DNA from: Chiloscyllium plagiosum
Lineage: Eukaryota
Direction: 5' to 3'
DNA length: 64,000 bases
Assembly: GCF_004010195.1 (NCBI RefSeq)
Contig: NC_057717.1
Span: 69,770,721 to 69,834,720 of the forward strand
Shown one piece after another: positions 33,940 to 63,409 of the stretch. Under the pieces are notes generated by a model. The model searched no databases, was not told the DNA's origin, and was given only the letters and a program-made list of their open reading frames with translations. How positions within the stretch are numbered: position 1 is the stretch's first letter; every line of letters starts with the position of its first letter. A program made the position numbers and the translations under genes.

Positions 33940-35230
33940 TGACAAAACCCAATGGACCCAGCATCGATCCTTGCAGTAAACTGCTGATCACAGATTGGAA
34001 TTGTTCGTTCAGTCATCAAAATCAGCCTCTATGGATTCTAACTATCTACACTGGAAAAAGAAAACATCCCCATGATCCTGCTTTCTGCATTCAAACTAGT
34101 TTTATAATCACATAGTTATTAATATAATGTTCCTGGAATCAATGTGATCTCATCTTGCTAACCAGTCTACCGTGTGGAATCTTTTCAATTGTCTTTCTGA
34201 AGTCCATGCTCATAATGTTCACTGCTTTGCCTTCGTCAATCCATTTAGTCACTTCTTCAAAAATCAATCAATTTAATGAGGCACGGTTTTCCACGTATAC
34301 AGACATGTTGACTATTCCTAATTAGTTCTCGCGATTCCAAATGTAAGTCCTGTCCCTTAGAGTCCCCTCCAACAATTTACGCATCACTGACGTCAGCCTC
34401 ACCGGTTTATGGTTCCCTGGCTTTTCCATGCCATTTTCTTAAAGAATAACACCACATTAGCCACCCCTCGTCTTTTAGCATCTCCCCTGTAACTACTCAT
34501 CACACAAACATCTCAGCAAGTGACCGAGCAATCACTTTAGTAGCTTCCTACAACGTCTGGGATACATATTGTCAGATCTCAGGAATTTCATAATTTTGAG
34601 AATTTTGACAAGTCCAGCAAACTCTCCTCTGTAAAATAACACGTATCAAGATATAAGTATTTATGTCTTCAAGTGTTACGGCTTCTCTTTCCTTCTCCAT
34701 AGTAAATACTGATGCAAAATGTTCATTAAGAATCTTCCTTCTCTCCTGCGATTCCACACACAGGCGTCCTTGCTGATCTTTACTGGGCTCTAATTTCTCC
34801 ACCACTCTGGTTACTCTTTTGCCCTGAATGTATTTGAAGAATCCCTTTGAATTCACCTACTTGCCAAAGCTCTCTCATGTCCAAGTTTGGCCCTTCTGAT
34901 TTCCCTCTTGAATATTATCCTACTGCCTTTAAACGCATCAACATATTAATTCGGTCCTTGGTACCTATACATATTGTATACATTCTTATTTTTCTTGATC
35001 GGGGCCTCAATTTCACTTGATATCCAGAAACCTCTACACTTTCCAGCCATACCCTTCTTATAATCAGGACATTCATAATCACTTCTGAAGGACTCCCTTT
35101 GTTCTTTACCTGCAAATAGCCTATCCCAATTAGTTTCTCAAGTATTTGCCTAAAACGCTCAAAACTATCCTTAGTCAATTTAGTACTGTAACATTTATAT
35201 CAGGTCTGTTCTTCTGCTTAAGTATTTTAA
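33940..35230 (-). mobile_element. Old CR1 ORF2 fragment, part of the duplicated cassette
   Basis: NSKGFFKYIQGKRVTR..ILNEHFASVFT; parallels 59280-60590. Confidence 0.8.
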
Positions 35231-35244
35231 AACTATTATCTATT

Positions 35245-35430
35245 GTTTCACAGGTATGAGAAACTGAGTGATCTCCTCCTGTCCTTCTGTAATGCACCTG
35301 AGAGGCTGAATGGCTTCTTCCTTATCCTGTGTAAGAGACTCGAAACGCTGAATGACTGTCTGCAATTCTTCTAACAGACCCCAAAGGCTGAATGACCTCC
35401 TTCTATCCCTCTGTAATGTACTCAAAGAAT
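35245..35430. repeat. About 42-bp satellite (TAACAGGCTCGAGAGGCTGAATGGCCTCCTCCTGTTCC..)
   Basis: Recurrent GGCTGAATG units; same family as 40245-41030 and 60611-61020. Confidence 0.8.
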
Positions 35431-35989
35431 TAGATGACACAGAGTTATGAGCAGCCATTAAATTGCAAGTGATGGACGACGTCCACTTCTCAGTTACAGA
35501 AATACAAACAACACAAGGTACTCCAAAGGAAAGTGAGGACTGGAACTGCTGGAGTTCAGAGTCGAAGAATTTGGTACTGGCAAAACACAGTGGTTCTTAG
35601 ATGCTCCCTGAACTCCTGTGTTTTTCCAGCGCCACACGTTTTGACAATGTGCTGCAGGTGTCCTCACAGTAACATGACATACATCTGCAGTGACCTTTCT
35701 CTATGCATTGAAATTGTGCCAACATTTCAGCTTTCTACCTCTTCAAGTGGTAATAGGCTCGAGTAGACTGAATAGCCTCCTTCTATCCCTCTGTGACTGC
35801 TACATGGGGACAGAATTCATTCCCCCGTTACTGATCAGCAGTTTCAATGTTCTGAATAATGTATTGACGTAATGAAGTGATTTGATAACAAGGCATTTCA
35901 AACTAGGAACAGCATAACACAAAGTCCGAGAGCAATAATTATTGTTGCCCTGGTTTATGGTCTCTAGAAACTTTCCCATCAGTCATGTT

Positions 35990-36035
35990 GTGCAGCTGGT
36001 CTGTTGTTTTATGTATGTCTCCTACTATAAAAAGT
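35990..36035 (+). promoter_or_regulatory. Candidate promoter: E-box CAGCTG (35993-35998) and TATAAAAA (36026-36033)
   Basis: Both motifs are retained at equal spacing in the paralog (61448-61453 and 61481-61486), about 390 bp upstream of the ATG. Function is not demonstrated. Confidence 0.4.
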
Positions 36036-36412
36036 GTGGGAAATATATCACCCTGCAGTGTTCTGTCACTACTCCCACACACAAGGCAGAATGCTGAAGA
36101 ATATTGAAAGGCTTATTGTTCATGCACCAATAAACCTCATAATTCCATCCAGACCTTCTATTGTGATATGATAAGTGTGGGAAGGAAGGCGCTTACTGAA
36201 CTTGTTTGTTCAGTGACTGTAATCAACGTCAATCTCGATGGATTCTACCTATCCCAGAGGAAGGTTTCCATTCTTTAATGCAAAATGCACTCTGTTGTAT
36301 GAGCCCACAAAATGAGAGATCCTCACCTACTGAACTAACAGAGATCAACAGCTACAAAGGGAGGAGGAGCAGTTATCAGAATCTGAGAGCATTCATTTGG
36401 AATGTCCCAACA

Positions 36413-36581
36413 ATGGCTCAGAATCTGAGAACTTTAGACTGTCATGTTACAACAATGGACAGGAGTTTGTCTGAAAATATTTGGTTTCTTTCTACATCTT
36501 CTGTTTGGTTGTGGATTTATGATGCACTTTCCATTACGCAATATTTTTATTATCCTTTCCTGGCTATCATTGGTATCCCTG
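36413..36581 (+). CDS. First coding exon of a GPR139/GPR142-like class A GPCR (N-terminus and start of TM1); partial gene
   Basis: MAQNLRTLDCHVTTMDRSLSENIWFLSTSSVWLWIYDALSITQYFYYPFLAIIGIP ends at CCT G|GTAAGT. The YYP.LA.IG.P motif and the phase-1 intron after TM1 'GxP' match the GPR139 family structure as I recall it. There is an alternative ATG at 36455. Confidence 0.75.
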
Positions 36582-36913
36582 GTAAGTCTCACTGTCCATT
36601 TATTATTTCTGTAAACTGCTTTTAAATGTATTATTTCTCTTGTCATTTACTCTACACTCTTTGAAGCTGTTATTGTTCCTGCTGGTCATCTGAATGCAGA
36701 TATTCACGCTACAAACCAATGCATCAGTGAACCTTTTCATTCACCCTCCATCTTTGTTTGCTTCTGAAGTTGTCCCTCACGCATCTCGATGTTGCCCTAC
36801 CTAGTTTCAGTGGTGAACCACAATTAGTTGTATCCATGGACTTATTATCTAAATATTGGACAAAGTTAAAATCGATCTTTGAGAAGATTTGTACTTTAGG
36901 TTGAGGTTCTGGA

Positions 36914-37089
36914 TGTAGGTTTGCCCGCTGAGCTGGAAGTTTCGTTTTCAGACATTTCGTCACCATACTAGGTAACATCTTCAGTGAGCCTCCGAATGAA
37001 GCTTCATTCAGAGGCTCACTGAAAATGTTACCAGGTATGGTCACAAAATGTCTGAAACCGAACCATCCAGCTCAGCGAGCAAACCTACA
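36914..37089. repeat. 176-bp imperfect spacerless palindrome (88-bp arms) made of a PLE terminus
   Basis: Centre AAG|CTT at 37001/37002, with roughly ten mismatches between arms. Confidence 0.92.
36951..36984 (-). ncRNA. Hammerhead ribozyme motif (second PLE family)
   Basis: Minus strand reads CTGAAGA-t-GTTACC-tagtat-GGTGAC-GAAA-TGTC, flanked by TCA/TGA (short stem I). Confidence 0.65.
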
Positions 37090-37879
37090 ACGAAAGTTAA
37101 AAATCAAACAACACCAAATTATAGTCCAATAAGCCTATTTGGAAGTGTGAGCTTGGGAGCATGGAGGTTGCTCTCTTCTGTTCTGGCCATGAACTCCATT
37201 TCCTTCCTCTGATTTCATATCATCTCTGCTCAATATCTGTGCTTGAAACAGATCAATCACAGTTGTAGCAATCCCGTCGGCCATGAGCTGATTCCTGAAA
37301 CCATGCCCTGATCATTTCTATTTTTAAATGTTAACAAATCCAGAATATACTTCATTGGTTCATCCCATATGCTATGTGAACCTTGAGCTATGAGGCGCAG
37401 TTTAATGATGTCAATAAACACCTGCTGGAACTCCCAACTTCATGCTGGCAGAAGCAAATCTTAGTCGATACTCCACGGCTATTCATTATTCCTGGGCACT
37501 GATCTGTATTGGTTTCGAGTCTGAAAATGCCCTTAATTTAAAATTCTTTAATTGGTCGTCTCAGCTGTATATGAAATGTCCTTCAGTCTCTGTCTCTGAA
37601 ATTCCCAAACTGTTGCTATTGTTCATATTGAAACTGATTGCCTGTATAGTTGTTCTCTCTCAAATAATAATTATCACTTGTACACTCCATACGTCTTCCG
37701 CCACCCCCGCCTCCCCCAACACACAGAAACACACACGCGCATAAACCCACCACAGACACAAAAAAATTCGCACTTATCTGTTTCCTTTGTGATATAGAGG
37801 CGTAAGTTTATGGGATTCCCATTAACGATTATTCACAACATTAGGCTGACCTTAAGTTCCCTTGGATCCATCCAGAACG

Positions 37880-38265
37880 TAAGTTGACCTGGGCCATCCG
37901 AGACACCAGCCTCCCCTTTCTGGACCTCTCCATCTCTCCAGTGTCCAACTCAACGAGGACATTTACTTCAACCCACCGATTCCCCACACCATTCCTGGGC
38001 GCACCATCCCCATAAAAGCGTTATTCATTTCGCCTATTCCTCTACGTCTGCCTTATCTAATCAGAAGGAACACAATATTCCCAGCCACATGATCAACATT
38101 ATCCTCCCGTACATCTCCTCCACTTCCCACACCTCCGCCCTTGAATCCCAAACCCTCCAACCACAATGAAGATAACCAGCCCCGCTCCCGGTCCTCACCC
38201 TCCACCTCAATAGTCTCCAGACACAGAGCATTATCCTCTGTCATTTACACCACCTACAATCAGAC
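37880..38265 (+). mobile_element. Decayed PLE RT fragment
   Basis: CTCCCCTTTCTGGACCTCTCCATC (LPFLDLSI) and GTCCTCACCCTCCACC. Confidence 0.7.
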
Positions 38266-38884
38266 GGACGTAATTAACAATTTTATCTGATCTAACAATG
38301 CCTTTATTGAATGCTCTCATTCTTGCGGTTTGTAACATCAAAGGAATCTCTCCTCCAGTTCGTCCCTCTCCCCTGTCATTTCATCCAAATTTCCACAAAG
38401 TGTTCTGAGTTCATTTTTGATATGATTCTGTCTTTATTGTGAATCTTTCTGCTCTTCTGTATATTTTCCTGCTTTTGTTTTTGATTTCCTTTCGTATCGA
38501 GTGCTGGCATTGTGAAGCTCAGAAACAATGAAATGTTGCGTTTTTAACAATTGTTTACTTCCTGGTGAGCACCGTGTGGTGCTCCGTGGTAGATAGGGAT
38601 TTTCAGCAGCTTTGACTCATGTCTTTCAAAACTGATCCACGCCTGTCCACTGAACGCCTATGTTTGTCCCTATCAGCTGATCTGCGGTCAATAGTAATTG
38701 GAAGCCCCTCGAGTATTTTTAAAGAAGACTAGACATCAAATTTGTAGTTTAGTGGATTCTGACTGACTCCTATTATTGAAAAGTTAGGCGAGGTGATGGG
38801 GAATTTTTTTTGTGGTTGTGTTGTGATCTACCCCAGAGATTCTAGGAAACCTTAGGATTTGTTGACCCAACTCTGGAAGGAGTA

Positions 38885-39830
38885 TGGGGACTGCAGTTGC
38901 AGCATCTGGGTCTATAACACGAACAACAAATGGAGCAGAGGTTGCAGAGAGGGGTAGCTCTGAAACCACGGAGTGAGTGAACGTCGGGAAAGGGATCTAC
39001 CATATCCACCCCACTTTTCCAAGAACAGCTTCCCAAGCCACACTTAACCCAGGAGCAGAGTGTGAGGGTACCCTGATTATACAGAAAGCTGATCAAGCAC
39101 TGTGTTACCTCTTTCAACACGATCTGGAGCTTCACACCGAGGTGGGGGAGGGGCGGGGGGGGGTTGTCGGGGGCTTTTAGGGGAAACACTGTTGCTAGTG
39201 GCTGTTAAGATCACAGTTTTATTCAGCTTCCATGATCCAGAACTTTCCAACTATGAGTGTGTGACACATGCACCATCTTGCTGTATGTTAATATCAATCT
39301 CACCATTCGGTTTCGGAGGATATATGTGTTGAATGAGGCAAAAATAATGTTTTCTTCCTCAGCAGGGACATTCCTTGATTTCCCAATATAGCGCGATTTC
39401 CCGATGGTATATATGGTTATGCGGAGTACCCATGTCAATGTGGGGTTACAGAAACTGAAGGAATTTTCACTCTATTAATATTGCGGTATGACCATGTACA
39501 GTACATCATGTTGGTGAATATCCATTGCCCTGACAGCCACGGCCTCTTCATTCAGAAGCAGTCAGCCATTCCCATTGTATTTGGACCTCTGTATTAAAAG
39601 AAAGAATGCCTCTTGCATAACGTCTGTCCCGTTAAGACTCGTTTCCAAATTTCCTCCCTCTCACCATTCCCCACTAACCACCAACCACATCAAAATATTC
39701 AGTGTGTAATGAGAGCAATGGAGCCACTGGGAATATCCAGGAGCAGAACATCAAGGGATGGAGCAACGCTTCCGAAGTCTGAACATGTAAGAGTGAACCT
39801 TCTGTTGCATCACTGTATCACTAAGTCCTG
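38885..39830 (+). mobile_element. PIF/Harbinger transposase relic (HARBI1-like DDE), with multiple frameshifts
   Basis: Ordered motifs LTQEQSVR, ALCYLFQHDL, LLVAVKITVLFSF, RN*RNFHSINI, DHVQYIMLVNIHCPDSHGLFIQKQSAIP, CNESNGATGNIQEQNI and QRFRSL. These match recalled Harbinger motifs LPVAVKVT, NRKGFHSIN, PGSxHD and YNxxHxxTRxxIEQTIGxLKxRFRCL. Confidence 0.75.
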
Positions 39831-39999
39831 TAGTCGCTTTCCATTTCAGTAACGTACTACCATCCATTCTTCCTGAAAATAAAAATGAAAGATTGTCTAT
39901 CACATTCTGCATCACCTTTCAAACAAATATCCATTTTGGTAACCGTTTTTATATCCAAAGTGGACAATGGAACTTCTTTAACAAACATGTCCTGTTGGA

Positions 40000-40195
40000 C
40001 CCCATATACTAACCACTAAGAATCCACCAACCCCAGCAGACTCAGACATATAAATGGCAATTGGAACGTAACATAAACATTTCACTGGAGGCACATGGAC
40101 GATATTACCCAGAATGGTGACAAAACATCTGCGACTAACTAGTCAGCTCAGCAAGAAAGTCACTAACCTTATTCACAACCTGAGCTACAAAAATT
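40000..40195 (+). mobile_element. PLE terminus of the same family as the 36.9 kb palindrome, decayed
   Basis: GATATTACCCAGAATGGTGACAAAACATCTG..CAGCTCAGCAAG. Confidence 0.65.
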
Positions 40196-40244
40196 GAATA
40201 TTCTATTTTAACGTGTCTGCTCCCAGGTCCGTGTATGAGGCATC

Positions 40245-41030
40245 AGTGGCTGAATGAACTGATGCTGTTCCTGTTTTGCAAGCTCGATGGACTGAATGTC
40301 CTCCTTGTGTTCCTATATTATAATCTCAATGGGCTGAATGTCCTCCTGGTGTCCCTACATTATGGTCTCAATGGTCGGAATGTCCTGCTGCAGTTCGTGA
40401 ATCAGTGGGAAAACGTCTGCTTGTCCTCCGCTTGTTGAGATGTAAGGAGCTTGATGGCTTATGCAATCTTCCTGTTACTATGTAACAGTTTTAGGGGCTG
40501 AATGGCCTCCCAAGTTTCCCCTATAATGGAGCTGAGGTACCTTACAGTCTCAACCTGCATTCCTGAAATGAGACAAGAGAAATTATTACTCATCTCCTGT
40601 TCCCATATAACAGGCATGTCAGCTGAATTAACTTCTGCTTTCCCGTAAAAAAAAGTCTGAAGTAGTTTGTATCCTTCTCCAATTACCGCACAACGCAGTC
40701 GATGAGCTGAATGGTCTCTTCTTTTTCCATGTATGAATGTCAAGTCGTTTTGTGTTCCAGACTTGAAGCTGAATGCACTGATCCTGGTGCTATGCATCAG
40801 GATACTGGTATTGCATGACTTCCACTCGGGCCAGTGCTATAGGGTAGAAAGGTTGATTGGCCTCCTCCTGTAACAATGAATACGGCTTCCGGTTGAGAAG
40901 AGCCTCATCCTGCTTTTTTTGTAACCTGTTCGAACGCCTGAATATGGGTTTGCGGTTCATATGTAGCAGGCTCAAAAGACGGAACGGATTCTGCCAATTC
41001 CTGTGTAATTGGGTTCTGTTGCTGAGTACT
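40245..41030. repeat. Decayed satellite array, unit about 42 bp
   Basis: Recurrent GGGCTGAATG(G/T)CCTCCT..GTTCCT units. Confidence 0.8.
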
Positions 41031-41559
41031 TCCAGTCTTCGATGTAAAAATGAAATCAGCTTTCATTCTTGTTACCTGCAATGGGTTTTGAATCAAACCC
41101 ATCACCATTTACATGTTAGCACCTTAATTCCAGAAATCAGTTGAGGGAACCACTTGTGAGCTGCTTCAAGTTGAACAGTATCCTTCCTTCAGTGAGGGGA
41201 TTAAATCTATAAACACGGACCTTATGTCTGAAAGTGGATAGATTGTGCTGCATTTCAGAAGGTACAAGTATATGCTTCTGTGATTGCATGTTTGCAGAAG
41301 GTCAATCGTTGAGCAGTTTAAGACAGGAATTAATGGGAACTCTTAAACAAGGATTTTAAGACTGCGTGATGTTCATTTCAAAATGATTTAACTACAGGAG
41401 TACGGTTGTCTTACTGGGGCTCTACAGGGCCTTGGTGAGTCCTCATCTCGAACATTGTATAATATTGTGTGCAGTTTTGGTCATTGTCAGTGGACATTGT
41501 TTTCAAGGTAACTAGTAGTTACACAAGATGTTAGATGTGGACGTTTTATTAATTGTTTT

Positions 41560-42640
41560 GAACTGGCTGGAATGTAAAAGATAGAAGATGGGTTCAAAGG
41601 TTGTTTTTGAGACTGGACGCCAATGACCAACTATGTGCGACAAGGATCGGTGATGGGTCCACTGTTTTTCGTCATTTATATAAATGATTTGTGTGTCATC
41701 ATAGGAGGTATTGTTAATAAGTTTGTAGATAGCACCAACATTTGCAAGTAGATTGAACAGCGAAGATGCTTAGCTCAGTTTACAAATGGATCTTGATCAG
41801 ATGAATCAGTGAACAAAGCAGTGGCAGATGGTGTTCAAATTAGATAAATGTGAGGCGCGGTATTTTGGAAAGGCAAATCAGGGCATGGTTTATATGCTTA
41901 ACGATAAGTTCCTGGGGAGTGTTGATGACTAAAGAGACCTTGATGTGCAGGATCATTGTTCCTTGGACGTGGAGGCATATGTAGATAGGACAGAGAAGAA
42001 AGTGTTTGCGATGCTTGATTTTCTTGGTCAGTGCAATGTGTATAGAAGTTGGGATGTCATGTTGCAGTTGAACAGTATACTGTTTACTCCACGTTTGGAA
42101 TACTGCGTGATGTTAGGTATCTCTGCTGTAGGAATGAAGTTGTGAAACTTGAAATGCTTCGTAGAAGGTTTACAAGGATATTTCCAGAGTTGGACAATTT
42201 GAATTATAGGGAGAGGCTGAATAGGCTGGGGCTATTTTCTATCGTGTGTTGGAGGCTGAGAGGTGAACTCACACAGCTTTATAGAATCAGGAAGGGCATG
42301 ACTAGTGTGAATAGACAAAAAGGTTTCATTTGGGTGTGGAGTCCGAAACTAGAGACGGAGGTTTAAAAGATAGAATACATTTAAAAGGGACCTAAGGGAC
42401 AACTATTTTTTTTCCGCAGGGGGTGGTGCGACTATAGAATGAGCTACCAAAGAAAGTGGCGGTGGTTGTTTCAAATGCAACATTTAAACTGCATCTGGAT
42501 GGATTTACGATTAAGGAGGATTTAGAGGGAAATGTTTCAAACGCTAGCAAATGGAAATGATTTATATAGGAAATCTGTTTGGCTTGGTCAATTTGTACTA
42601 AAGAGTCTTTTTCTATGTTGTACAGCTCGATGATCTGTGA
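41560..42640 (+). mobile_element. Old CR1 RT and 3' end
   Basis: SWDVMLQLNSILFTPRLEYCV and RRFTRIFPELDNLNYRERLNRLGLFS. Confidence 0.85.
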
Positions 42641-44229
42641 GTATATAATTTCAGACAGCTTCCAGAGCAGCAGCTTGTGCTGGATTCTTGGCAATCCAGT
42701 GAAATTTCCACAAAAGCACCATCTCATCATGGGTACCTATGGAAACCCACACTGAGCAGGTTATTTCTGCTGCTTAACAACGTTGTCAAAAATAAATTCC
42801 AACAATTAAATTATCTTAATGAGACTACAGGTGTGGCAACTGATCAGATTGTAATTTCCTCCTCTTAGGGAACAGGCTATAGTTGAGTAATTTTCTACAT
42901 TTCCAGGTAGGTGTCAGAGTTGGACCTGGAATGAAAATTCTCCCCAGGGCCACGGTTTGTTGCGCAGTAAAAGTTTTTAGTCCAAATGAAGGAAAACTGG
43001 TCAGGGCCCATTGTCTTTTTCGTATTGACTGCTTTCAGCAGTTGCTTGATGTCACGTGTATTGAATCAGACTGGTTGAAGACAAACGTCTGTGATTCTGC
43101 GAACATCATGACGAGGGTATGGTGATCATCAACGCAACACCTCTGGCTGAGGATGTTGCAGATACCACATGGTATGCAGGGTTGTTCAATTATTTAAGAT
43201 TAATATATTTATGCAGTTCTCTGCTCCATTGAGTTGCTTAATATTCTATCACCATTTATGACTATGTTTGGCAGGACTGTAAGGCTTAGGTCTGATCTCT
43301 TGGTCTACTAATCATTTCACTTTCGCTATCTCATTAACAGCTAATAGAGAAGGTGAAGTGATCCCAAGATAAAGAGAACGGATAATGTTTTCTGTTGTTT
43401 GGCATGTAAGCAATCAAGTGTGATAGTTTTCATAGGTTGTTGTCCGGTTTAGGTAAATATGGTTCTGACGCTAGCATGTTCACCCACACTCATCACTGAA
43501 CAATAGATTGGCTCGAAGCTATTGCAAAACTGAGGCTTGTCAAAAGCCTGTAGATTGTGGTTGTATGCAATTCTGCGTCTGCTGCTGCTCTGGTAAACAG
43601 CATGAAATGAATGTCCAGTTTTGAGCTGCAATATCTGCATTGGAATTCTGTTGTCTCTCCTCCAATTTTCCCAGAGGCCAATTCACCCATCAGCCCTGTA
43701 CGCAGTGACTTGCACTGTTTTCTGATGTAGTTATACTTCCATTTTAATATTCTCACCCCTCTGATGATCTATCCCGTGTTTGACAACACCAATTTGTAAG
43801 AATCGTGCAAGAAAAGCAACATATTCATATGAAACGTTTTCCTTCCAGTCGTGCCATCTTCTGCGTTTAAAGGTAATGTGGTTCCATCTGCTTCTCTCCC
43901 TAACCATGATTAAGAGTTTTGTAATATCAGTGAAATGTCTTTGCGGTTTCAGAAGCAATGAAGTTGTGCACCTTGCAGTACTGATCAATTCCCAATGTAT
44001 GGCGATATATTTTGGAAATACTTGGAGAATACAGTCAATCTCAGCAGAGCATGTGTTCAGTCACTTGAGGAGGTATCCCCTGAATGATTACAAAGTACCA
44101 GGCTTAAAAATTGCAATGTTTTCTCTAACAAGGATGTTAAAATATACCTTAGGAAGGTCAGTGGATGTACAATGGTAGACATTTAAGCGGATATTTCATA
44201 ATGTTCAGCAATGATCTTTTTCTGTTCAG

Positions 44230-45700: not shown

Positions 45701-46329
45701 GTAGTGTCAGAAACAATGAATTTTGATCCTTGCACGATTGCGCACTTCCTGGTGTCTGGTGTTCCTTGTTGGACAGGATATTTGATCACCTTGGACACAC
45801 GTCAGTGAAACATGTCTAAAAGCAAAACTTGTTGAGAAAACAAACCAGTCTGGCAACGACTGTGGATTGAAAGCCGAGTTAATATTTCGGATCCAGTGGT
45901 CATTCTTCAGAGTTCCTAATTGCTCCAGAAATATGGTTTATTTCCCCAGTTCTTTATTTTATTGAAAACTGAAACGCTGGACGTCTGGCAACACCTATGG
46001 AGAGAGATAAGAAATGATAACGGTTCTAGTCGAGCGTGAAACCACTTCAGTGCTGAAAAAAAAATTGAAAATTGTCTTATTAACAAATTGGCAGAGCTGG
46101 AGGAGGGGTGACGAGGAACAGAGAGAGTGGAGGTGCAGTGCGAAATATAAACATTGTTTTTGTGATTGAAGTGAAACAGGTGAAAAATTGATGTAAATAA
46201 AGGTCTGACTGAAGGAAATAGTTTCTCGTTATTCACACCAAGATAAACAAGACATAATCAAAACAAGGTTTTCGGGAGACGGAGATAGAATACATAAAAA
46301 TGGGAGAAAAGCCATCATGGGGTCAGGCT

Positions 46330-51472: not shown

Positions 51473-51654
51473 CAGATAGATTCATGAAAGAGAACGGAGT
51501 AGGAGTTATTGCGGAGAGGGCAGGGATGTGCAATGTGGGAACAATGCTGACAGTAGTACAAAATGAAACTTCAGATGACCAGAACATCCAAGAATATAAC
51601 GGAAAAAGAAATGATAATATAGAGAGAATTTATAAATGTAGATAGTGATAGAAT

Positions 51655-51865
51655 ACAGTCTCTGTACTCCCAGAGGACATTTAGACTGATTTCTCATTCG
51701 AGAGAGACCACCCATACTCGTGTAACCTGATGGTTACCACACCTCGGGTAAGGCTGCAAGGATGAGAAAGTGGAGCTTCATGGTAACGTCTGTCGATGGG
51801 GGAATTGAACGTACGCCTCTGGCCATCCTCACCATCAGAAATTGGCTATCCAGCCAAGTGAGTGG
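51655..51865 (-). mobile_element. Diverged tRNA-derived SINE of a second family (unassigned)
   Basis: Minus strand CTCACTTGGCTGG (A-box-like), GTTCAATTCCC (B-box-like), then GTTACCATGAAG..GAGGTGTGGTAACCATCAGGTT. Confidence 0.55.
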
Positions 51866-52129
51866 AAGACTATGAGATGACTATAGACAGAATAGTCAAA
51901 GACAAATAGTCAAAGACAAAGGACAATCGAAACGTTGATAATAAGGAAGCTAGCATTCAAGGTCATGACTGACGACAAATAACTTCCTCCGTGAAAAATT
52001 GTCTTTCTTAATTAGATAAGTGTTTTGATGCTGTAGTTGGATGAATCTGTCAAGGTGAGACCAGTGAAATAACTGAAATTTCTGATTGTAATTGATTATT
52101 GATAACCATAAAATAAATGTAATTTTCAT

Positions 52130-53410
52130 TAAACAAAACAGAAGATGGTAGAAAAGCTTAGCAGGTGTGGCAACAGGATTTGAGGATGTACAGTACAGAT
52201 GGCTGTGGGAGTTGATGGGTTTTCAGTGAATATCCGTGGCCGGCCCATCACCAGAAATGGAAACAGAAATGTCGAGGAAGGGAAAGGAGGAGTCAGAGAT
52301 AGCCCATATGAAGGTGGGAGTGGGGTGTATATGGAAGTGAAATCAATGAATTTATTTTCCAATTCCGGACGAGAGAGAGAAGCAGCACCGATGATATAAT
52401 CGATATTTCCGAGAAAGAGTTGTGGCTCGGGCCTGAATAGCATTGGTAATTTGAAATATTCCACATACCCCACGAAGGGTCAGGCATAATTGCGCCCATG
52501 CAGATATTCATGGCCAGTCCTCTCATCAGAAAAAATAATAGAGGAGTTAAAACGTTAAAGTCGACAACAAGCTCAGCCAAATGGGAGAGAGTGATTAGAT
52601 TAGATTACTTACAGTGTGGAATCAGGCCCTTCGGCCCAATAAGTCCACACTTCCCCACCGAAGCACAACACATCCATACCCTTACATTTACCCCTTACCT
52701 AACACTACGGGCAATTTAGCATGGCCAATTCACCTCACCTGCACATCTTTCGACTGTGGGAGGAAACCGGAGCACCCGGAGGAAACCCACGCAGACACGG
52801 GGAGAACGTGCAAACTCCACACAGTCAGTCGCCTGAGGCGGAAAATGAACGCGGGTCTCTGGCACTGTGAGGCAGCAGTGCTAAGCACTGTGCCACCGTG
52901 CCACCCACAGGGTGGTTGTGGGTGTGGACAGTTCAGGCATTGCTCTGGGAGGAAGCAGAGAACGCTGAGACCATCTTGGAGAGGGAGAGAAGTGAAGAGG
53001 GATTTTATGTCCATGGTAAAGAGAAGGCTGCTCGAGCCTGAAAACTGGAAATTTTGAAATTGGCACAAAGAGCCAGCGGATTCATGGATTATTCACATAA
53101 TCTGCCAACGTATTTTACCTATTTTTAGCCACTAACAGTCCCCATTGACAGATATTCAGACTCCCACCCAGATCATTATCTACTCCTTTGTCATTCGAAC
53201 TGCTCTTCGCTTTCTTTGGGCTCTATCCTCACCTATCATTTACTTCTTAGCCTTCCCGCTACGACATTACTTCTGTACACAAACCGGCAGTTTCCTAGTT
53301 ACCATCAGTTCTAAAGGAAGATGTCAACTCTGATTTCTCTTCACAGATTCTGGCAGACCTTTGAGATTTTTCAGCAACGTATGTTCTTTTTCTGCATTTA
53401 CACCGTTCTT
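52130..53410 (-). mobile_element. Decayed PLE RT fragment with inverted terminus, interrupted by a SINE
   Basis: FTMDIKSLFTSLPLQDGL and GLAMNICMG. Confidence 0.75.
52594..52903 (-). mobile_element. HE1-type SINE, young
   Basis: Reverse complement of the 2204-2529 family with a (GATTA)n tail. Confidence 0.92.
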
Positions 53411-55519
53411 TTAGTTTATATTTTTGATTGTCCTGTGTAAAGTGTGCTTTTGATGACATAAAAAATATGAGGCTGATGCACTTTTTTGTACGGAGAGTCT
53501 GTCATCAAGGGAAACGATTCCAGAACACATATTTGAATAAACTTAAAGTAAAAAGAGTCCGAGAGTCAGCTGCTCAGTCAGAGCAAAACAGGGTGTTGAA
53601 AGATTGAAGTTATCTGTGACATGGAGATCAGGACAGAGTCAGATTAGCTACGAACCTATTGAATAATAGAGCAGGTTGGAAGGGCTCAATGGCTTCCTGG
53701 TTGATTTTAATTGTGTTTGATCTGAACAAAAAAAAATACAACTTTGCTCCTTCCCCTTCAGTGTTACAAATTCCGGGACTGATAGTTTCCTGAAACTGAG
53801 ATTGTTTGGAACAGTATCTGGAACATTCTATTAACAACATCATTCATAAAATTCTAAAAGTGAATATCTCCATAACATTCTCCAATCATGCGTCGGTTTT
53901 CCATAGGTGAGGGAGATAGAGAGAGAGTGTAGAAGGTGCTGCATGCAAGAGTTAGAAAGGTGGAGTATCAGACTTTTTCGAAGGTAGGTGCTACAACAGA
54001 TATGCAATGATTATGAGGAAGCAGAGAGAATACGGTGACACTTATCCTGGCAGAGTGTGTAAGGTAATTGACGCTTATTATGTATCACTGGACATTTCTT
54101 CAGACCGCAGATTCTGCACTGAGTTGGATGGTGAGCAAAGACCAGATATTTGCGTCTGGTGGTGGGCCCTCAAATGAATAGGAAATGGTCCACTCTGCAC
54201 CAGCACAAACACCAGGATCTCCAGGACCCTGTCCACAATTTGTGGTACAATTGCTCCTCATCTGCCATGCTCGCAGAAAAAACATGCAGGGCAACTCAGA
54301 ACAGAGAATCTCGACCTTGTGCCCAATGACCACTTACAGATAGCATGAGTGCCATGGATCATGGAATATGCAGGGATTCGGCAGCCCTGAGTAACTCTAG
54401 TCATGATTGGAGAATTAGGCTGGCATTGGATGGGAGGGAAGCTATGCCATGTGGTAGATCTGTAACAAGGTGAGTTTGATAAAGTAGCAGCAGGAAATGA
54501 AATTGGCCTCGTGCAGATGATTCATCTCTCAAACTCAGTCAAAACGACATGAGCAAAAAATATTGTTAGATTCATCCTAATGACTCTGTTGACCCCACTT
54601 CCTGTTACAAAGCTACAGAACAAATACTTTTCTAACCATCTCCAATTTCCAAACTCGCATGAAAGTCCTGTTCGCGCATCATTCATGGAAACACTGGCTC
54701 GTGTTGCAAGGTGATCTCGAAATGATTTCATTTCAGCATGCTGAAGCCTGCTAACACATCCTTACAGATTATTGTCTCTCAGTGTCCCGTTGTCTGTCTA
54801 TATCCCCAAACCATCCCAATTCTTAGTGTTTAAACTGATTGCCCCAACACCTCTCTCTGGCAGTGATTTTGACATCCATTGTACCCCTTGCCATGGCACA
54901 CTCGAAGTATGGAGCTGCGAATGGATGGAGTTGCACATTATGTCCCTTTTAGCATGGGCTGTAATTGTCCCCACACTGGCCAGTGATCTAATGCAGTTCA
55001 ACCGAGCAATGCACTGGGTCTACATGGCTATACATGTTGAGTAGTTAACTGCTCCAGGTTTACACATCAGTTCATTGGTGTTCATGGCGCAGCTCCCTCT
55101 GCTGCACAGGTATCGATTTCAAGTGTATAGGTCCATGTACTGGCGTGGTCTGCACAGTGATGATCTCTGAACAGATTGCTGTCTTGCATTGACCATTTCA
55201 TTAGATTGATCAGCACAGTGCTCTGTGATGAAAAGATATCTCAGCTAGATCCATGATGTTGGGGCTGATTTTGTGAGTTGGATTGAGAATAAGATGTAAC
55301 CATTTCAGATGATCTTGCAATTTTGTTTTGTTCTCATCCTTCTGACTGGACTGTCCTAACTCTCATTCCACTAATGTTGGGAGTGTGGCCATGCATAATA
55401 TTTCATGTTGGTGAATGTCTTCAGTATTAGCCAGCCTTTTCCATTGTCTTCGGATCTCTACACAGAACGAAAGGATGCTTCTTTGATGAAGATCATACAC
55501 TTGCTACCAGGGTGAAAAC

Positions 55520-55745
55520 ATCTCCCCCTCCCCACTCCCCACCATCAATGAAACACATCCAGTATCCCACGTGTACTGAGAGCAATGGAGCCAGTGGAAA
55601 CATCAGGGAACAGACCATCAGGGAAATGAAACAACACGTCTGATGTCTCAGCCAATCATTGTGAACCCTCCAGAACACATTTTCCCACTAAGTGGTGTAG
55701 TCTCCCTCCATTTCAGTAACACATTGCCTTCTATTCTTTTCAAAA
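55520..55745 (+). mobile_element. Harbinger transposase C-terminal relic, paralogous to 39650-39880
   Basis: CTESNGASGNIREQTIREMKQHV*CLSQSL*TLQ, with shared GAGAGCAATGGAGCCA and CCATTTCAGTAAC. Confidence 0.7.
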
Positions 55746-56204
55746 AAAGATCAGTTTCCTTTGTTGACTTCCAATTGTCGAATTGTTTTCCATGCTTATC
55801 CATTTACAGATTTTCTGCCCATTCTCGATAAATTCATTTCCTGAATATTATCCATACATTTATTTAGAATACATTTGTTTCATTTATCAAAATTGTTCAT
55901 ACGGGTAGCAAATAGTCAAGGATCTAGCATTGGTCACTGTGTCATTACTGTCAGTATTAAATGTTAAATTGATAAAGACTAACTTATCCCAAACTTATCC
56001 CTGCTTCCGGCTCGTTATTCAGAGTTCACCATAATCCAGTGTAGCATCTTTGAAACTCTGAATGTTCCCTTCCATTTCCTGTAGAACAGGCATGAGCAAT
56101 GGAAAGAACTGTTCCAGTTGCTGAACAACAGTCTCGAATGGCTAAACTGCCTCATTCTGTTCCTGTTTTAAAAATCTTGATGGGCTGAATAGAAACAGGA
56201 AGGT

Positions 56205-56530
56205 TACTTCCTAAGGCGGGTGAAATTATAACTGGGAGGCAAATCCTCAAAGAAAGGGAACATATTTAGGACTGAGTTGAGGAGGAACGATTTCATCCAA
56301 AGGGTTGTGAATATGGGGAAGTCCCTGCCTAGTGGAGACGTTGGGGCTACTTCGTTGAATGTATTTGAGGCAAAGATTGGTAGATTTTTGAACAGCAAAG
56401 GAATTAAGCGTGATGGTGAACATGTGGATAAGTGGAGCTGAGTGCAAGAAAAGATCAGCCATGATCCTATTGAACAGCAGAGCAGTCTTGAGGAACCACA
56501 TGGTCTCCTCCTGGTCTTTCTTCTTATGTG
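56205..56530 (+). mobile_element. CR1 3' end
   Basis: TTTAGGACTGAGTTGAGGAGGAAC and AGATCAGCCATGATC tail region. Confidence 0.75.
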
Positions 56531-57099
56531 TTTACGGACTGGCCTAATATTACTGCATTTGTCTGCAAAGTGCCAGATGACTCGAGTTTCAGGAGTGATT
56601 TCCACTGGGAGCCTATGTTTGATGAATGGTTAATGATGTGTGAACTCTCGCTTTGACACTCACATTGAATTAGATCCACTGCTTACTGAATGCTATCCAC
56701 AGAGCAACTCGTTATTCACTGGAGATTCTGGAATGAATGACCATCCCGGGCACCAGTGCAAACTTTCAATCCCGATAGTGCCCTGCAATAAACCTAGCCA
56801 GTTTGGAGGTACCCTGCACAGTTCCCTGATATTAAGCCTGCACGTCGCACTCTGGGACAAATTTCTTCTGTCCACAAAACAAATTTGTAAGTGTGGTAAT
56901 GTAACTTCTCCTTCATGGGAAGGTTCACAAGCAAGTCTTCCTTTTCCCCCAATGGAGGCTATGCTACAAGGCCAGGCCAGCCAGCTCAGAAGTTGCCACC
57001 CAGACCAGAGCAGTCTCAGCCACCTGGAGAATTGCAAAACATTGTACGGAGATCATTGTCCTTCTACACGTCGGCAGCATAAGGGGACATCAAGTGAGA

Positions 57100-58142
57100 A
57101 GTCGCATGGGGTCAGGTTGTTCTAGCTAGATGGATAGACAACTGGTTAGGTAACAGGAGACAGAGGGAGCTCCTCAAAACGGAGACCTGTGAAAAGCGGT
57201 GTCTCACAGGGATCTGCGCTGGGACCACAGCTGTTTGTGTTATACATAAATGACTTGGAGGAATGTGTAGGTTGCCTCATTAGCAAAATTGCAGATGACA
57301 CTAAGACTGGTGGAGTAGAAAATAATGAAGGGGACTGTTATAAATACAGCAGCATATGGATGGATTGGAGAGCTGGGCAGAGAAATGGCAGATGGATTTT
57401 AATCCGGACAAAGTGATGAGATGCAATTGGGAAGATGTAATTCCAGAGCGAACTATATAGTAAATAAAAACGTTCAAGGGACAGTTGAAGGACAGAGAAA
57501 TCTGGGTGTTTAGGTCCATTGTTCCCTGAAGGCAACAACGCAGGACAATCTACTGTTCACGAAGGCATACAGCATGCTTTCCTTCATCGGACGGGGTATT
57601 GAGTACAAGAATTAGCAGGTCATGTTACAGTTGTATAAGAATTTGGTTTGGCCACATTTGGAATACTGCATACAGTTTTAGTCGCTACATTGCCAAAAGA
57701 ATGTGGATGCTTTGGAGAGGGAGCAGAGGAGGTTCACCAGGATGTTGCCTGGTTTGGAGGCTGCTAGCTATGAGTAAAGCTTGAGTATATTATTATTATT
57801 ATCATTGGAAAAAAAGAGGTTGAGTGTGGTCCTGATTGAATCCTACAGAATTATTGGAGACACGTTGGATAGCAAGAGCGGAGGACCCAGTTACTACGGG
57901 TCACGAGTTCAAAGTGAGAGGACAAATTTTGGCAGATATACATGGAACGTTCTTCACACAGAGGGTGGCAGTAGTGGCGGGAATGATCACGACTTTAAAG
58001 ATGTACCTGAACAGACACACGAATGGGTAGGGAGCAAAGGGATACAAATCCTTAGAAATCAAGTGGCAATTTTAGACGGAGAATATGAATTGACGCAGGC
58101 TTGGAGGGCTGAAGGACCTGTTCCTGTGCTGTAATGTTCTTT
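57100..58142 (+). mobile_element. CR1 RT and 3' end, decayed
   Basis: SGVSQGSALGPQLFVLYINDLEE..SKIADDTK. Confidence 0.88.
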
Positions 58143-58807
58143 GTCCTTTGCTTTCTTTTTGTTTGAGAATCTAGCCATTCCTCTCGAGAAGAATGAAGAA
58201 GAGGCAACGGGATTACCTTAACTTCCACGCAGGCCTCACAAAACATCGCGATTCAATTGCCATTAAACTCGCCATAACCCTTATCACTCAGATTACACAG
58301 AAGCAGTTTGTCTGTAATTTAGAAACAGCAAGAAGAATTAAATACTGATAAGAGTTTTATGTCTAAGTCAAAACTGCAGAGCAAATTTTATGCATGTTAT
58401 AAACAGGAAATTAGATATTCAAGTACAGATATTACCATCAAAACTCAACAAGTTTGGTATCATCAGGAGGAAAGAAGCAGTGATACATTTCAAGTCTGTG
58501 TCTTGTCACCGAAAAAGTTTCTGTTTCCGATGTCCTGCATTTGCAGATCTTTGTTTCATTTGAGATTGGCTAGTATTCTGCATACAACAGTATTGATCTG
58601 GGGAGAAGGGGAAGTGGTTACGGCTGAAGGGGAGGAGATGGGTCAGTTACAGCTGAAGGCCCTGTCCATCAGAGGTCGTGGGTGGGGGAAGAATTCTCGG
58701 GTGAGGGAAAAGGAAGTCATTATAGAGGTACCCCACTGTAATTGGACATCATCTCAAATGATGTGACGGATTTTTTAAAATGCAGGAATGTGGTTACCCT
58801 TAGCTTT

Positions 58808-59140
58808 GGGTTACACAGTGGCACAGTGGTTAGAACTGCTGCCTCACAGAATCAGGTACCCTGGCTCAATTACACCCTAGGGCGAAGGTCTGCGTGGAAT
58901 TTGCACACACTCTCCATGTCTCTGGGAGTTTTCTCAGCGTGCTGTGGTTTCGTCCCACAATCCAGGTTCGGTATGTTGGCCATGGTAAATTGCCTTGCAG
59001 TGTCCAGTAATGTCTAGGCTAGGTGGTTTAACTATAGATGATGTAGGGTTACAGGATCGGATGGGGGTACCTAGTGGGATGTCCATCAAGGGGTCAGTTA
59101 GACTCGATGGGTTGAATGGCCTTTTTCACACTGTTGCGAA
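58808..59140 (+). mobile_element. HE1-type SINE, diverged
   Basis: GTGGCACAGTGGTTAGAACTGCTGCCTCACAG head and GGCCTTTTTCACACTG tail. Confidence 0.8.
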
Positions 59141-59279
59141 TCTATTACAATCTTTGTGTTTGGCAACTCTCGCCGTAGTACTACAATTAATTCTGTTACT
59201 TCCACCCTCATCTGGCTTACAGAAATGCAATACTTCACAGTTAACTAATTGGCCACTCATTGGCCCATCTGATCAATGT

Positions 59280-60590
59280 CCTGTTGTACACTGAAATAAT
59301 CTTCTTCACTCTCGACTGCACACCAAGTTTGGTGTTATCTGAAAACTTACTAACTACTTCTCCTACATTAAAATACATGTTATTTGTTAAGTTACTGGAA
59401 CCATTGGACACCGCACCGATCCTTGCAGCACACTAAACTTCACCAGCCACCAGTCAGAAAGAAGAGTCCACCATCACCCTCTGTCTTCTGCCTTTCAGCG
59501 AATTTTGTCTCTGAAAGGTTGGTCTCCCTGGATTCATATTAATCTTACCTTACTAAACAGTCTGAAATGTGGATCTTTGTTGAACACATTGCTGAAGCCA
59601 ATATAGACGTTGTCAAATATTGTGTCTTCATCAATCTTCTTCAAAAAATGTCATACAAATTAGTGACACGTAGATTCCCATGCGCACAGCCATGCTAACT
59701 ATCCATAATCAGTCTGAGCCTTTGTAAGACATGGAATCCTGTCCCTCAGAATCTCCTCTAGCATTTTAGCCGTGACTGCTCATTGGTTTATGGATTTTCC
59801 ACGCCACTTTTTTAAATAATGGCACTCATTCGGTACTCTCCAGTCTTCCATCACGTTACTTAAGACTATCCATGATACGAATACCTCAGCGAGGATCTCA
59901 GCAATGACTTCTAAAGCTTTCCACAAAGGTCTACCATACAACGGATCAGGTTCCAGAGAATTATCCACGTGTATGCACTTTAAGACGTTCAGTATCTCCT
60001 CCTCTGCAATGTGGACAGTTCCCAAGATGATCTTTTTTTTTTCTCCTTCTCCACAATAAATAATGATTCAAAATATTCGTTTCATACCTCATCTTTCTCC
60101 TGTGGTCCCATCCGTTGGTGACCATGCTGATGTTTCAGTGGCCTTAATCTCTTCTTAGTTACTCTTTTGTGCTTAATGCATTTGCAGAATCCCTTCAGAA
60201 TCCAGTCTTCCTCATTTACCAATGCTATGTCATGCTCCACTTTGCAGTCCTGAATACCTTCTTGAGTATACTCCTACTAACCTTGTACTGTTTTAGGGAC
60301 TCATTCGTTCCCTGCTGCCTGCACTTGTTTTTTTTATTTCCTTCTTTTCATTGATCAAAGCCTCAATTTCCCTTGTCATCCAACCCACCAGACTTGCATT
60401 TCATACTGTCAGAAACATACCACCTCTGGAGATCCATAACTTCATTTTGAATGTTTCCCAATTTCCATGTATCCTGTTACCTGGGGATATGTTTTCCCAA
60501 TAAACTTTCCAAAGTGTTTGATGCACGTTTTCAAAATTGGCTGGCTAGATTCAGAACTTTAAACCAAGGTATCCTTTTACATAACTATTT
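59280..60590 (-). mobile_element. Old CR1 ORF2 fragment, part of the duplicated cassette
   Basis: EEEILNVLKCIHVDNSLEPDPLYGRPLWKA..EDWRVPN. Confidence 0.8.
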
Positions 60591-60610
60591 TAAATCCGGT
60601 AGTTACAACG

Positions 60611-61020
60611 TAACAGGCTCGAGAGGCTGAATGATCCCCTCATGTTCATATATAACAGACTGGAGAAGCTGAACGGCATCTTTCTGCGCCGTTGTAACAC
60701 ATTCCAGAGGCTGAACATACTCCTCATGTTGTTCAGTGAAGACTCGAGAGGCTGAACTAATAATCTATGTTCCTGTATAACAGACTAGAGAAGCTGAATA
60801 TTCTCTGCCTGTTCCCGTATGACAGGATCGAGAGGCTGAATGGGCACTTTTGCTACTTCCGTAGTAGACACAAGAGGCTGATTGGCATTCTTCTGTTCCA
60901 CTGTAAGAGACTGGAGCAGCTGAATTGCCTCCACAAGAGGCTGAATGGTCTTGGCGTGTTCATGTATAACAGACTTGAAAGGATGATTGGGCTCTTCCTG
61001 TCCTCTGTAACAGGCTCAAA
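60611..61020. repeat. 42-bp satellite, about 9-10 units
   Basis: TAACAG at 60611 and 60653, and recurrent GAGAGGCTGAA. Confidence 0.9.
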
Positions 61021-61865
61021 ATATTAAATGAACGGCCGTTAAACTGGTGGAGGTCCCTCTATTCTCAGTTATACAAATTTAAAAACACAGCGTAATCCAA
61101 GTGTTCTTTCAGTGATACCTCATTTGCTGCAGTAATCCTTCTCTATGTTTTGAATGATTCTCCTTGCAAGACCTGTCAACATTCCAATTTTCTACCTCTC
61201 AAGTGGTTATTTTTTCGAGTGGGCTAAATGGACTCCTTCTACCCCTCTATAGTAGGCACATGGAGACTCAATTTTTTTCCGGGTTTCTGAACAGCCACAT
61301 CAATGGTCCTAATAATGTCTCAAGATTATGAAAGAATGCGATAAAGGGCGCTTAACAATAGGAGCAGCAATATTCAAAGTCAGTGATCAATAAATGTTGT
61401 TATCCTGCGTTCTGCTCTCTTGAAATTACCTGAACAGTCATTATCTGCAGCTGGTCAGTTAATATATTTCTGTCTCCTATTATAAACTGTATATAACATA
61501 TATGCAATCCTGCTGTGCTCTGGCATTACTCCTACATGCAAAGAAAAAGAATAAAAATATTGGAAGTTTTATGGCCCATTCATCACGAACCCTCATACAT
61601 TCTATCCAGACCAAGTAATAGTTCCTCTTCTTGTAACACAAAGAGTGCGATAAGGAAGGCGTGAATCGAACCTGTTTGATCGGCGACTGTGATTAATGTC
61701 AGTCTCCATAAATTCTAAGTATCACGACAAATGTTCTCTGAACAATTTGTTACCCCATAGTTTGAGCAGAAACAGCACCCCGTAGCACTAACAGTTATCA
61801 AGAGCTGCAGAGAGAGGGGGAGAAGAGATCAGTAACTGTGAACATTAGAGTGGAATGTGACAACA

Positions 61866-62044
61866 ATAGAGCAGAATCTGAGAATAATTGACGGAAATAT
61901 TCCAACTCTGGAGAGGAGTTTATCCTGGAATGTTTGGTATCTTTCTGCACATTATCAGATATCATTAATCACTGTGGCTGCAGTATGCTCTTTTGATGAT
62001 TCAATGATTTCATTATCCTATCCTGGCTATCATTGGTGTCCATG
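61866..62044 (+). pseudogene. Inactivated paralog of the GPR139-like exon 1
   Basis: IEQNLRIIDGNIPTLERSLSWNVWYLS, then after a frameshift LWLQYALLMIQ*FHYPILAIIGVH. Both ATGs are lost (ATA, CTG), there is an in-frame TGA, and the donor has changed from G|GTAAGT to G|TTAAAT. Confidence 0.8.
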
Positions 62045-62892
62045 TTAAATCTCACTGTCCAGTTATTATTCCTATAAACACTATGTAACAATACTACGAT
62101 TATCTTCATTTACTCCACACTCCTTGCCACTGTTATTGTCCTCGCTGAGAGTCTGAATTCAGATATTCACTCTTCAAATCACGATTAACTACATCAGTGA
62201 TCTTATTCGTTCAATCTCTTCCTCCAGCTTCTGGCAGTCTCTCTCATGGGTATCTCTGAAGAACAACTCAGTTTCAGGTGTGAACCAGGATTCATTGTAT
62301 CACTGCACTTATTAATTAAATATTGGGGGCATGGTGGTCACCGTCTTCTGTTATGGTTACAAAACCATTTTTTCGTCTGACCCCATGCCATCCTTGACCA
62401 ATATCTGAGGATGAAACAGACGAAATACAACTATATTGATCTCTTTGGCCATGAGCTGATTCCTGAAACCGTAACCCGTCCATTCCTAATGTTAACTACT
62501 AACACCTCCAGAATATACTTCACTGACTCACCCCAACTCTTATTTGAAACTTTACAGATGAAATACAGTCTGCGTAATGCCAAGAATCTACTGCTAACAC
62601 TCCCAGCTTCAAATCTGCACAAACAAATGCACTCCACGGCCGATATTCAAACTCGTACTAAAACCCCATTCATCCATCATTCCTGTGTGCGCTGATTATT
62701 CGTGGGTCTGACAATGCATTTACTATAACATTCTGAAACACATCATCGCAAGTACCAAGAAACGTCCTTCAGCCTCTCTCTCTGTCACTTACCTAAAATG
62801 TTACCAGTTGTTCAAATTTAAACTGATTTCCTCCATGCGTGTTCTCTCTGAAGCAACAGTTGTCACATGTAGCCAGCCCCTACCTTCCACTA

Positions 62893-62904
62893 TACACACA
62901 TAAA

Positions 62905-62935
<31 letters not shown>

Positions 62936-62956
62936 GCACACACACACACACACACA
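62893..62956. repeat. (CT)n(CA)n microsatellite
   Basis: Seen directly in the sequence. Confidence 0.9.
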
Positions 62957-63409
62957 ACTTGTCTTGTTCTGGTGCTATCCTAACATAGAAATATAAATTC
63001 GTGTAAGCCCAATTTAATGTCACGTACACCAGAGACTGGAAGTTTCCCCGTGTTCGGCAGTTACTTTGTGCAAGTATAATGGCAATATATTGGCAAAGGT
63101 TTGCAATGTTCCCATGCTGGGAATATAGTCCAGTTTATTGAGCAAAACACGAGCACAGTCTGCAAAGTTCTCCATGCTGTACTGTTACCTTATCTCAATT
63201 TATGGTATCTGAACTGGTTCTGTGAGACAGGTTCAGAATTCGATGATGCAAATCATTTCAATTGATCTGACAATGTCGTTGCTGAATGTTGTCCTCCCCC
63301 ACTCCTATTCAGCATCTTTGAAGGGGTGAAAAAGAAGAATGAGAATCAGTTAGCAATTCAGCCCCTCAAGCATGCTACACCAGTTAATACAATCATGCCT
63401 GATTTCAAC

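What the first reader, a model, noticed from the sequence alone, without database searches (positions are those of the whole stretch)
33940..62990. Tandem GPR139-like 'promoter + exon 1' cassettes with no exon 2 between them: possible variable-first-exon GPCR locus
Seen: a cassette of about 3.8 kb (antisense CR1, 42-bp satellite, E-box/TATA, exon 1, intron start, CA repeat) occurs at about 33940-37800 and again at about 59280-62990 in the same orientation. Copy 1 has an open exon and a perfect donor; copy 2 is dead. I could not find the large second exon (TM1 end to TM7) in the 27 kb after the donor. Established: GPR139 is a two-exon gene split in TM1, and as I recall GPR139-like genes are expanded in cartilaginous fish annotations. 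Inference: either copy 1 splices over copy 2 to a distant exon 2, giving alternative N-termini on a shared body as in UGT1 or clustered protocadherins, or these are orphan first exons from birth-and-death duplication.
Basis: partly seen in the sequence, partly recalled or inferred. Interest (0 to 1): 0.7.

Follow-up and report, generated by a model that had tools for sequence, protein, structure and literature searches.

The report
Shark receptor with spare first exons
This shark DNA holds two old tandem copies of a receptor gene's promoter and first exon, one intact and one dead, in front of a single intact receptor body just past the window; such runs of spare first exons recur across this huge gene family, but most copies are decaying, so each gene likely uses one surviving first exon rather than choosing among many.

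Summary
Observation confirmed: two same-strand cassettes (64% identical overall), copy 1 with an open exon 1 and GT donor, copy 2 dead, and no exon 2 or N gap between them. The missing exon 2 lies 26 kb past copy 2 (window-equivalent 87,883-88,790). It is intact and in phase with copy 1, which would give a 358-aa receptor across a 51.3-kb intron. The family is the huge shark 'probable GPR139' expansion, not GPR139 itself. The arrangement recurs: 9 runs of 2-5 first exons in 1.75 Mb sampled, built from a repeated unit of promoter, exon 1 and most of the intron. On this scaffold I found 27 exon 1 against 4 exon 2; sampling favoured exon 1, and at least one exon 2 is likely hidden in a gap. Only 7 of 28 array exons are clearly intact, and 1 of 9 arrays has two. 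No read shows splicing from this donor. Best reading: redundant first exons from ancient partial tandem duplication, one survivor likely driving the body; not a working UGT1-type system here. The scan has noted this family many times and this anatomy twice before (e1-9159284, e1-9936102).

The parts
34067..35059 (-). Decayed CR1-type LINE fragment upstream of copy 1 (part of the duplicated unit)
   Evidence: tblastn with the window's own CR1-type ORFs, E 3e-17 and 8e-22; CR1 label recalled
35264..35438 (.). 42-bp satellite, 4.2 copies
   Evidence: TRF with relaxed settings
35993..36032 (+). E-box (35,993-35,998) and TATA-like box (36,026-36,032), candidate promoter of copy 1; function untested
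   Evidence: read from sequence, same spacing in copy 2
36413..36581 (+). Copy 1 exon 1 coding part: 56 codons, N-terminus to mid-TM1, phase-1 GT donor at 36,582; intact
   Evidence: 62% to P0012 N-terminus
36582..64000 (+). Window part of the predicted 51.3-kb intron of copy 1. It continues past the window end to the only exon 2 in 464 kb (window-equivalent 87,883-88,790; L033:3883-4790): pyrimidine tract and AG acceptor, 301 open codons, TM1 end to TM7. The splice is inferred, not shown.
   Evidence: exon 2 matches PF00001 at E 3e-15 and carpet-shark 'probable GPR139' at up to 81%
36914..37089 (.). 88+88-nt inverted-repeat insertion present only in copy 1's intron
37150..55760 (+). Remainder of the duplicated unit: low-copy intron modules in the same order as in paralogous introns, ending in modules that lie just before exon 2 in three other genes; acceptor-proximal flank and exon 2 absent
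59546..60234 (-). CR1-type fragment of copy 2
60610..60925 (.). 42-bp satellite of copy 2, 7.6 copies
61448..61487 (+). E-box and TATA-like box of copy 2
61866..62046 (+). Copy 2 exon 1, dead: ATGs lost, +1 frameshift, stop, donor TT at 62,045-62,046
62919..62956 (.). CA repeat at the end of copy 2's conserved block

Best explanation
Two tandem copies of a unit made of promoter, first exon and most of the intron precede one intact receptor body; they likely arose by an ancient partial tandem duplication, the nearer first exon has died, and the farther one likely still serves the body by splicing across it, so the locus would make one receptor rather than a set of variants. Shown: the anatomy, the dead and live exons, the in-phase join (358 aa) and the recurrence of such runs. 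Inferred: the duplication route (a breakpoint or deletion just upstream of exon 2, then unequal crossing-over among units and block amplification), transcription from copy 1, and the 51.3-kb splice. Over time this would move promoters and N-termini onto new bodies (first-exon turnover).
For: One exon 2 in 464 kb, in the same gap-free piece as both cassettes, phase-compatible. The copy-1 interval holds the paralogous intron modules in order, and the same 'intron end, then next cassette' junction precedes 7 other first exons. 9 arrays of 2-5 same-strand first exons were found; 7 intervals between successive exons hold at most 376 N in total and no exon 2. Each of the 3 arrays with an intact body in view keeps exactly one intact first exon, and in 2 of the 3 it is not the nearest. 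Copy 1 is intact on a 0.20 branch, with simulated neutral survival 0.02 (0.17 without indels); the distal exon on C101904 (0.16 branch) is also intact, survival 0.04. The body has no indel against its nearest paralogue while its flank has 18 gaps in 3.1 kb, and neutral survival at 3.5% divergence is 0.03 (0.23 without indels). Copy 2's coding part is about as diverged as its flanks.
Against: No RNA read at 90% or better on copy 1 and no junction, from 2-6% of two single-cell runs of one sample. pN/pS is not significantly below 1 for the body's own branch (0.68, p 0.36; same as its two stop-bearing sisters) or for copy 1 (0.73, p 0.29). The body has private changes at conserved sites, including an Ala-to-Pro in TM2. 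The window was flagged because copy 1 is intact, which biases the survival figure. Copy 1 may have had its own exon 2 until recently. The assembly is fragmented and likely hides at least one exon 2 in a gap.
Confidence: 0.55

Rival explanations
1. The whole locus is a decaying relic: copy 1 is an orphan left by loss of its own exon 2, the body lost its promoter when copy 2 died, and nothing functional is made.
For: Both closest paralogues of the body carry stops with the same pN/pS. Only 13 of 30 best-matching bodies show a full open frame, although some of the others are cut by contig ends or N. 19 of 28 array exons are clearly broken. No reads.
Against: Copy 1 and the body are both intact against neutral expectation. 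The junction behind copy 1 is shared with other arrays, so the lack of exon 2 looks old.
Confidence: 0.3
2. A true variable-first-exon system (UGT1/Pcdh type) in this subfamily: several promoters and first exons are alternatively spliced to one body, and this locus is a degraded member.
For: Five old exon-1 types recur in ordered runs. Paralogous slots 90-92% alike carry different lesions, so several types were intact together when the blocks duplicated. One array has two intact exons 70 kb apart. Distal exons are no more decayed than proximal ones (5 of 19 against 2-4 of 9, Fisher p 0.4-1). Exon-1 and body distances are uncorrelated in 22 models of this subfamily (rho 0.15, 117 of 1000 permutations reach it) but correlated in 80 others (rho 0.46, 0 of 1000).
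Against: Only 7 of 28 array exons are clearly intact. Arrays with two or more intact exons: 1 of 9, against 1.6-2.3 expected from independent decay. 32 of 32 near-identical-body database pairs share their exon 1, mostly horn shark, automatic models. The RefSeq isoform sets seen differ only by truncated or non-family N-termini. At this locus only one exon is alive.
Confidence: 0.1
3. The excess of first exons is mostly an assembly artefact: near-identical exon 2 copies collapsed into gaps or unplaced contigs.
For: A pre-exon-2 flank runs straight into a 500-N gap 131 kb upstream of the window. More than half of the 40 best exon-2 matches lie on high-numbered, probably unplaced contigs. Orientation on C8 changes only at 500-N joins.
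Against: No N between the two window cassettes. 7 inter-exon intervals have too little N to hide a 0.9-kb exon and show no acceptor flank.
Confidence: 0.05

Closest known systems
Elasmobranch 'probable G-protein coupled receptor 139' models (RefSeq/UniRef; Rhincodon, Stegostoma, Chiloscyllium, Heterodontus)
   Same: Body up to 81% identical; exon 1 62% to P0012; same split in TM1.
   Different: Database models have one first exon per body; the tandem spare first exons are not represented in the 163 proteins examined.
UGT1A / GCNT2 / clustered protocadherin multiple-variable-first-exon clusters (PMC1885805, abstract read)
   Same: Tandem array of promoter-plus-first-exon units upstream of a shared downstream exon; diversity through birth-and-death.
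   Different: Here arrays are short (2-5), mostly dead, repeated at many loci rather than one cluster, encode only about 56 residues rather than a whole domain, and alternative splicing is not shown.
GPR139 / GPR142 (human GPR139, PDB 7vug, 9m42)
   Same: Best PDB match of family member P0012 (E 4.8e-9); class A, PF00001.
   Different: The window's body gives no PDB match at E 0.001, whereas locus L058 of this genome matches GPR139 at E 6.9e-92. The family is a distant sister, not the orthologue.

Membership tests
Multiple-variable-first-exon cluster (UGT1/Pcdh type) | Tandem same-strand paralogous first exons, each with its own promoter and donor, upstream of a shared downstream exon | tested here: met
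   Window: 2 cassettes, 1 body, no gap; 9 arrays in 1.75 Mb. Promoters judged by motif only.
Multiple-variable-first-exon cluster (UGT1/Pcdh type) | Two or more intact variable exons per cluster | tested here: not met
   1 intact of 2 at this locus; 1 of 9 arrays has two.
Multiple-variable-first-exon cluster (UGT1/Pcdh type) | Several donors spliced to one acceptor in transcripts | tested here: inconclusive
   No locus-specific RNA reads; no such pair among database models.
Multiple-variable-first-exon cluster (UGT1/Pcdh type) | Variable/constant organisation conserved across species | not testable with these tools
   No relative genomes held; one AI note reports the same anatomy in another shark (e1-9159284, not checked by me).
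Shark 'probable GPR139' two-exon class A family | Short exon 1 ending in TM1 in phase 1, and a large exon 2 with PF00001 | tested here: met
GPR139 orthologue | Best and strong match to human GPR139 | tested here: not met
   No PDB hit at 0.001 for the body; L058 hits at 6.9e-92.

The most novel reading that the evidence does not exclude
A branch of the shark orphan-GPCR repertoire is organised as many small variable-first-exon cassettes: each body can draw on several upstream promoters and N-termini, multiplying receptor diversity and giving a promoter-choice mechanism. I know of no such organisation in a class A GPCR family and found none in my searches. The window would be a member that has lost all but one option.
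Probability: 0.15. Interest if true: 0.8.

Novelty: new variant of a known kind. Interest (0 to 1): 0.42.

Why it matters
The family has on the order of two thousand first exons in this genome (rough estimate) and appeared in none of my six literature searches. Recurrent arrays of spare promoter/first-exon units mean that nearest-exon gene models can be wrong: in 2 of 3 arrays with an intact body in view, the nearest first exon is dead. They also offer a route by which promoters and extracellular N-termini are swapped between receptor bodies. If several exons of one array are used, this would be a UGT1-like system in GPCRs, directly testable with long-read cDNA.

Tried and rejected
Homologue search with the 56-aa exon alone: nothing. 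A degenerate exon 2 at 36.6-59 kb: rejected. The weak match at 54-55.7 kb to pre-exon-2 sequence lacks the acceptor-proximal part and also precedes other first exons, so it does not prove a recent deletion here. Recombination between two copies of that module as the cause: not supported by which half matches what. A recently recombined-on body: cannot be told, because the 90% matches to C101904 and C101531 stop at N gaps. Genome-wide exon 1:exon 2 ratio: not settled; first-look candidate counts were 1933 and 1480 for exon-1 queries and 2893 and 764 for exon-2 queries, with queries of unequal typicality, so they are not copy numbers. RNA: no RNA holder listed. X5 gave 11 reads, all under 90% alike; X6 gave none; X7 gave 5 contigs, none at 95% or better. 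Reads on the body were mostly paralogue-like and showed no splice joint. Papers: searches listed none on this family or its arrays. I read passages of PMC12294341 and PMC6504862 (no shark expansion mentioned in the passages) and the abstract of PMC1885805; no supplements were opened. Most subscription papers are outside the library.
Full report
Observation. Both cassettes are real and same-strand: 64% identity over the whole block against 47% for a shuffle, 67-68% over promoter, exon and intron start. The CR1-type fragment, 42-bp satellite, E-box/TATA-like motifs and CA tract are present in both. Copy 1 has 56 open codons and a phase-1 GT donor at 36,581/36,582. Copy 2 has lost both ATGs, has a frameshift and a stop, and its donor reads TT. 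No exon 2, intact or degenerate, lies between 36.6 and 64 kb, and that stretch has no N.

Identity. The window lies on contig C8 of a 3.56-Gb genome. An intact exon 2 lies at window-equivalent 87,883-88,790 and is the only one in 464 kb. It matches shark 'probable GPR139' models at up to 81% (1924 hits), and copy 1's peptide matches the N-terminus of P0012 at 62%. Joined in phase they would give 358 aa across 51,301 bp. The family is only a distant relative of GPR139: another locus of this genome matches human GPR139 at E 7e-92, the window's body not at all at 0.001. That human GPR139 has two exons is recalled, not tested. One exon-1 motif has 1,950 matches genome-wide; it hit 21 times in 24 sampled loci, which suggests roughly two thousand first exons.

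Counting. I scanned 1.754 Mb with DNA profiles and tblastn. 864 kb around the window: 11 exon 1, 3 exon 2 (two from a distant subfamily, 43-51% alike), plus one exon 2 that is likely hidden, because its flank runs into a gap. Two 200-kb samples chosen for exon 1: 9/0 and 4/0. Samples chosen for exon 2: C27 3/5 (two partial), C30 2/1, C101904 2/1, C101531 0/1, C8:545-635 kb 3/1. On C8 that is 27 against 4 seen, with biased sampling; C27 looks like ordinary paired genes. On C8, orientation is uniform within pieces bounded by 500-N joins. Seven intervals between successive first exons have at most 376 N and no exon 2, so the arrays are not only artefacts. The genome-wide ratio is not settled.

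Architecture. The repeated unit is much longer than 3.8 kb. Ten low-copy modules behind copy 1 recur in order in paralogous introns, almost always on the gene's strand. The last ones lie just before exon 2 in three genes and just before the next first exon in seven others. This fits an old partial tandem duplication, or an old loss of exon 2, then spread by unequal crossing-over and block duplication (inference). The tree shows five old exon-1 types in recurring runs. Copies 1 and 2 are both of the type that usually sits nearest the body, on long branches (0.20 and 0.22). The two exons on C30 are sisters, so tandem doubling likely happened more than once.

Alive or dead. Of 28 exons in 9 arrays (two arrays counted across one join or gap each), 7 are clearly intact and 2 are open but frameshifted at the N-terminus. 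Distal exons are intact in 5 of 19 cases, proximal ones in 2-4 of 9 (no difference). One array has two intact exons, against 1.6-2.3 expected by independent decay. Lesions are mostly private even between slots 90-92% alike, so several types were intact together before the blocks duplicated; this is the main point for the variable-exon rival. Among the 30 best genome-wide matches to copy 1, itself included, 21 are open with a GT donor. All 3 arrays with an intact body in view keep exactly one intact first exon, the distal one in 2 of them.

Selection. Simulated neutral survival is 0.02 for copy 1 (0.17 without indels) and 0.03 for the body (0.23 without indels). The indel rate was taken from the body's flank, and the window was picked for its intact exon. 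pN/pS values are 0.73 and 0.68, neither significant, and equal to those of stop-bearing sisters; the body has an Ala-to-Pro change in TM2. The evidence for function is therefore modest.

Database models and reads. Among 163 proteins, 32 of 32 pairs with bodies at least 98% identical and a family exon 1 on both share that exon. The isoform sets seen show no swap of family exons. Exon-1 and body distances are uncorrelated in this subfamily (22 models, rho 0.15) but correlated in the other 80 (rho 0.46), which fits first-exon turnover; these are automatic models and the tree is poorly resolved. The RNA runs gave no locus-specific read or junction. Contigs of run X1 match copy 1 with 6 differences in 399 and 1 in 213 letters.

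Verdict. A real, recurrent array architecture with the anatomy of UGT1-type clusters (PMC1885805, abstract), but failing the test of several intact variable exons. Best reading: redundant first exons with one survivor, here copy 1, likely splicing over dead copy 2 (0.55). Rivals: relic locus (0.30), working variable-exon system (0.10), assembly artefact (0.05). Six searches found no paper on the family or its arrays. Earlier AI notes had reported the family and this anatomy; the ordered multi-exon unit and the counts are from my own calls.

Noticed in passing
G000:C8, 131 kb upstream of the window (L070 area): An exon-2-proximal intron flank ends exactly at a 500-N gap: a body is probably hidden there, downstream of four minus-strand first exons.
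   Followed up: partly
G000:C8:69,556,092 and 69,626,217 (L132, L069): Two intact first exons of different types, same strand, 70 kb apart, with a dead one between and no exon 2 found: the best candidate for true alternative use.
   Followed up: partly
Family exon 1, e.g. C7:112,693,364-112,693,765: A 42-nt (14-residue) unit inside exon 1 is tandemly expanded, at least 10 copies at this site, giving variable N-terminal length.
   Followed up: no
L086 / C101531:17,728-19,390: The closest paralogous body carries an internal tandem duplication of about 540 bp and a stop.
   Followed up: partly
L058 (G000:C24:44,306,114-44,309,470): Large exon of a close GPR139/GPR142 orthologue, E 6.9e-92 to human GPR139.
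   Followed up: partly
L062 (G000:C9:94,390,048-94,393,398): Somatostatin-receptor-like open frame (label recalled) of 599 codons with a long Ser/Val/Gly-rich tandem repeat inserted around the second extracellular loop.
   Followed up: no
window 26,742-29,219: 454-bp tandem duplicate (96%) with related older copies and minus-strand open frames of 129-181 codons; not identified.
   Followed up: no
window 40,266-40,390: A third 42-bp satellite inside copy 1's intron, apparently the same family as the promoter-side one.
   Followed up: no
window 4,078-4,935 and 5,932-6,541: 33-bp and 37-bp minisatellites flanking a 500-N stretch.
   Followed up: no
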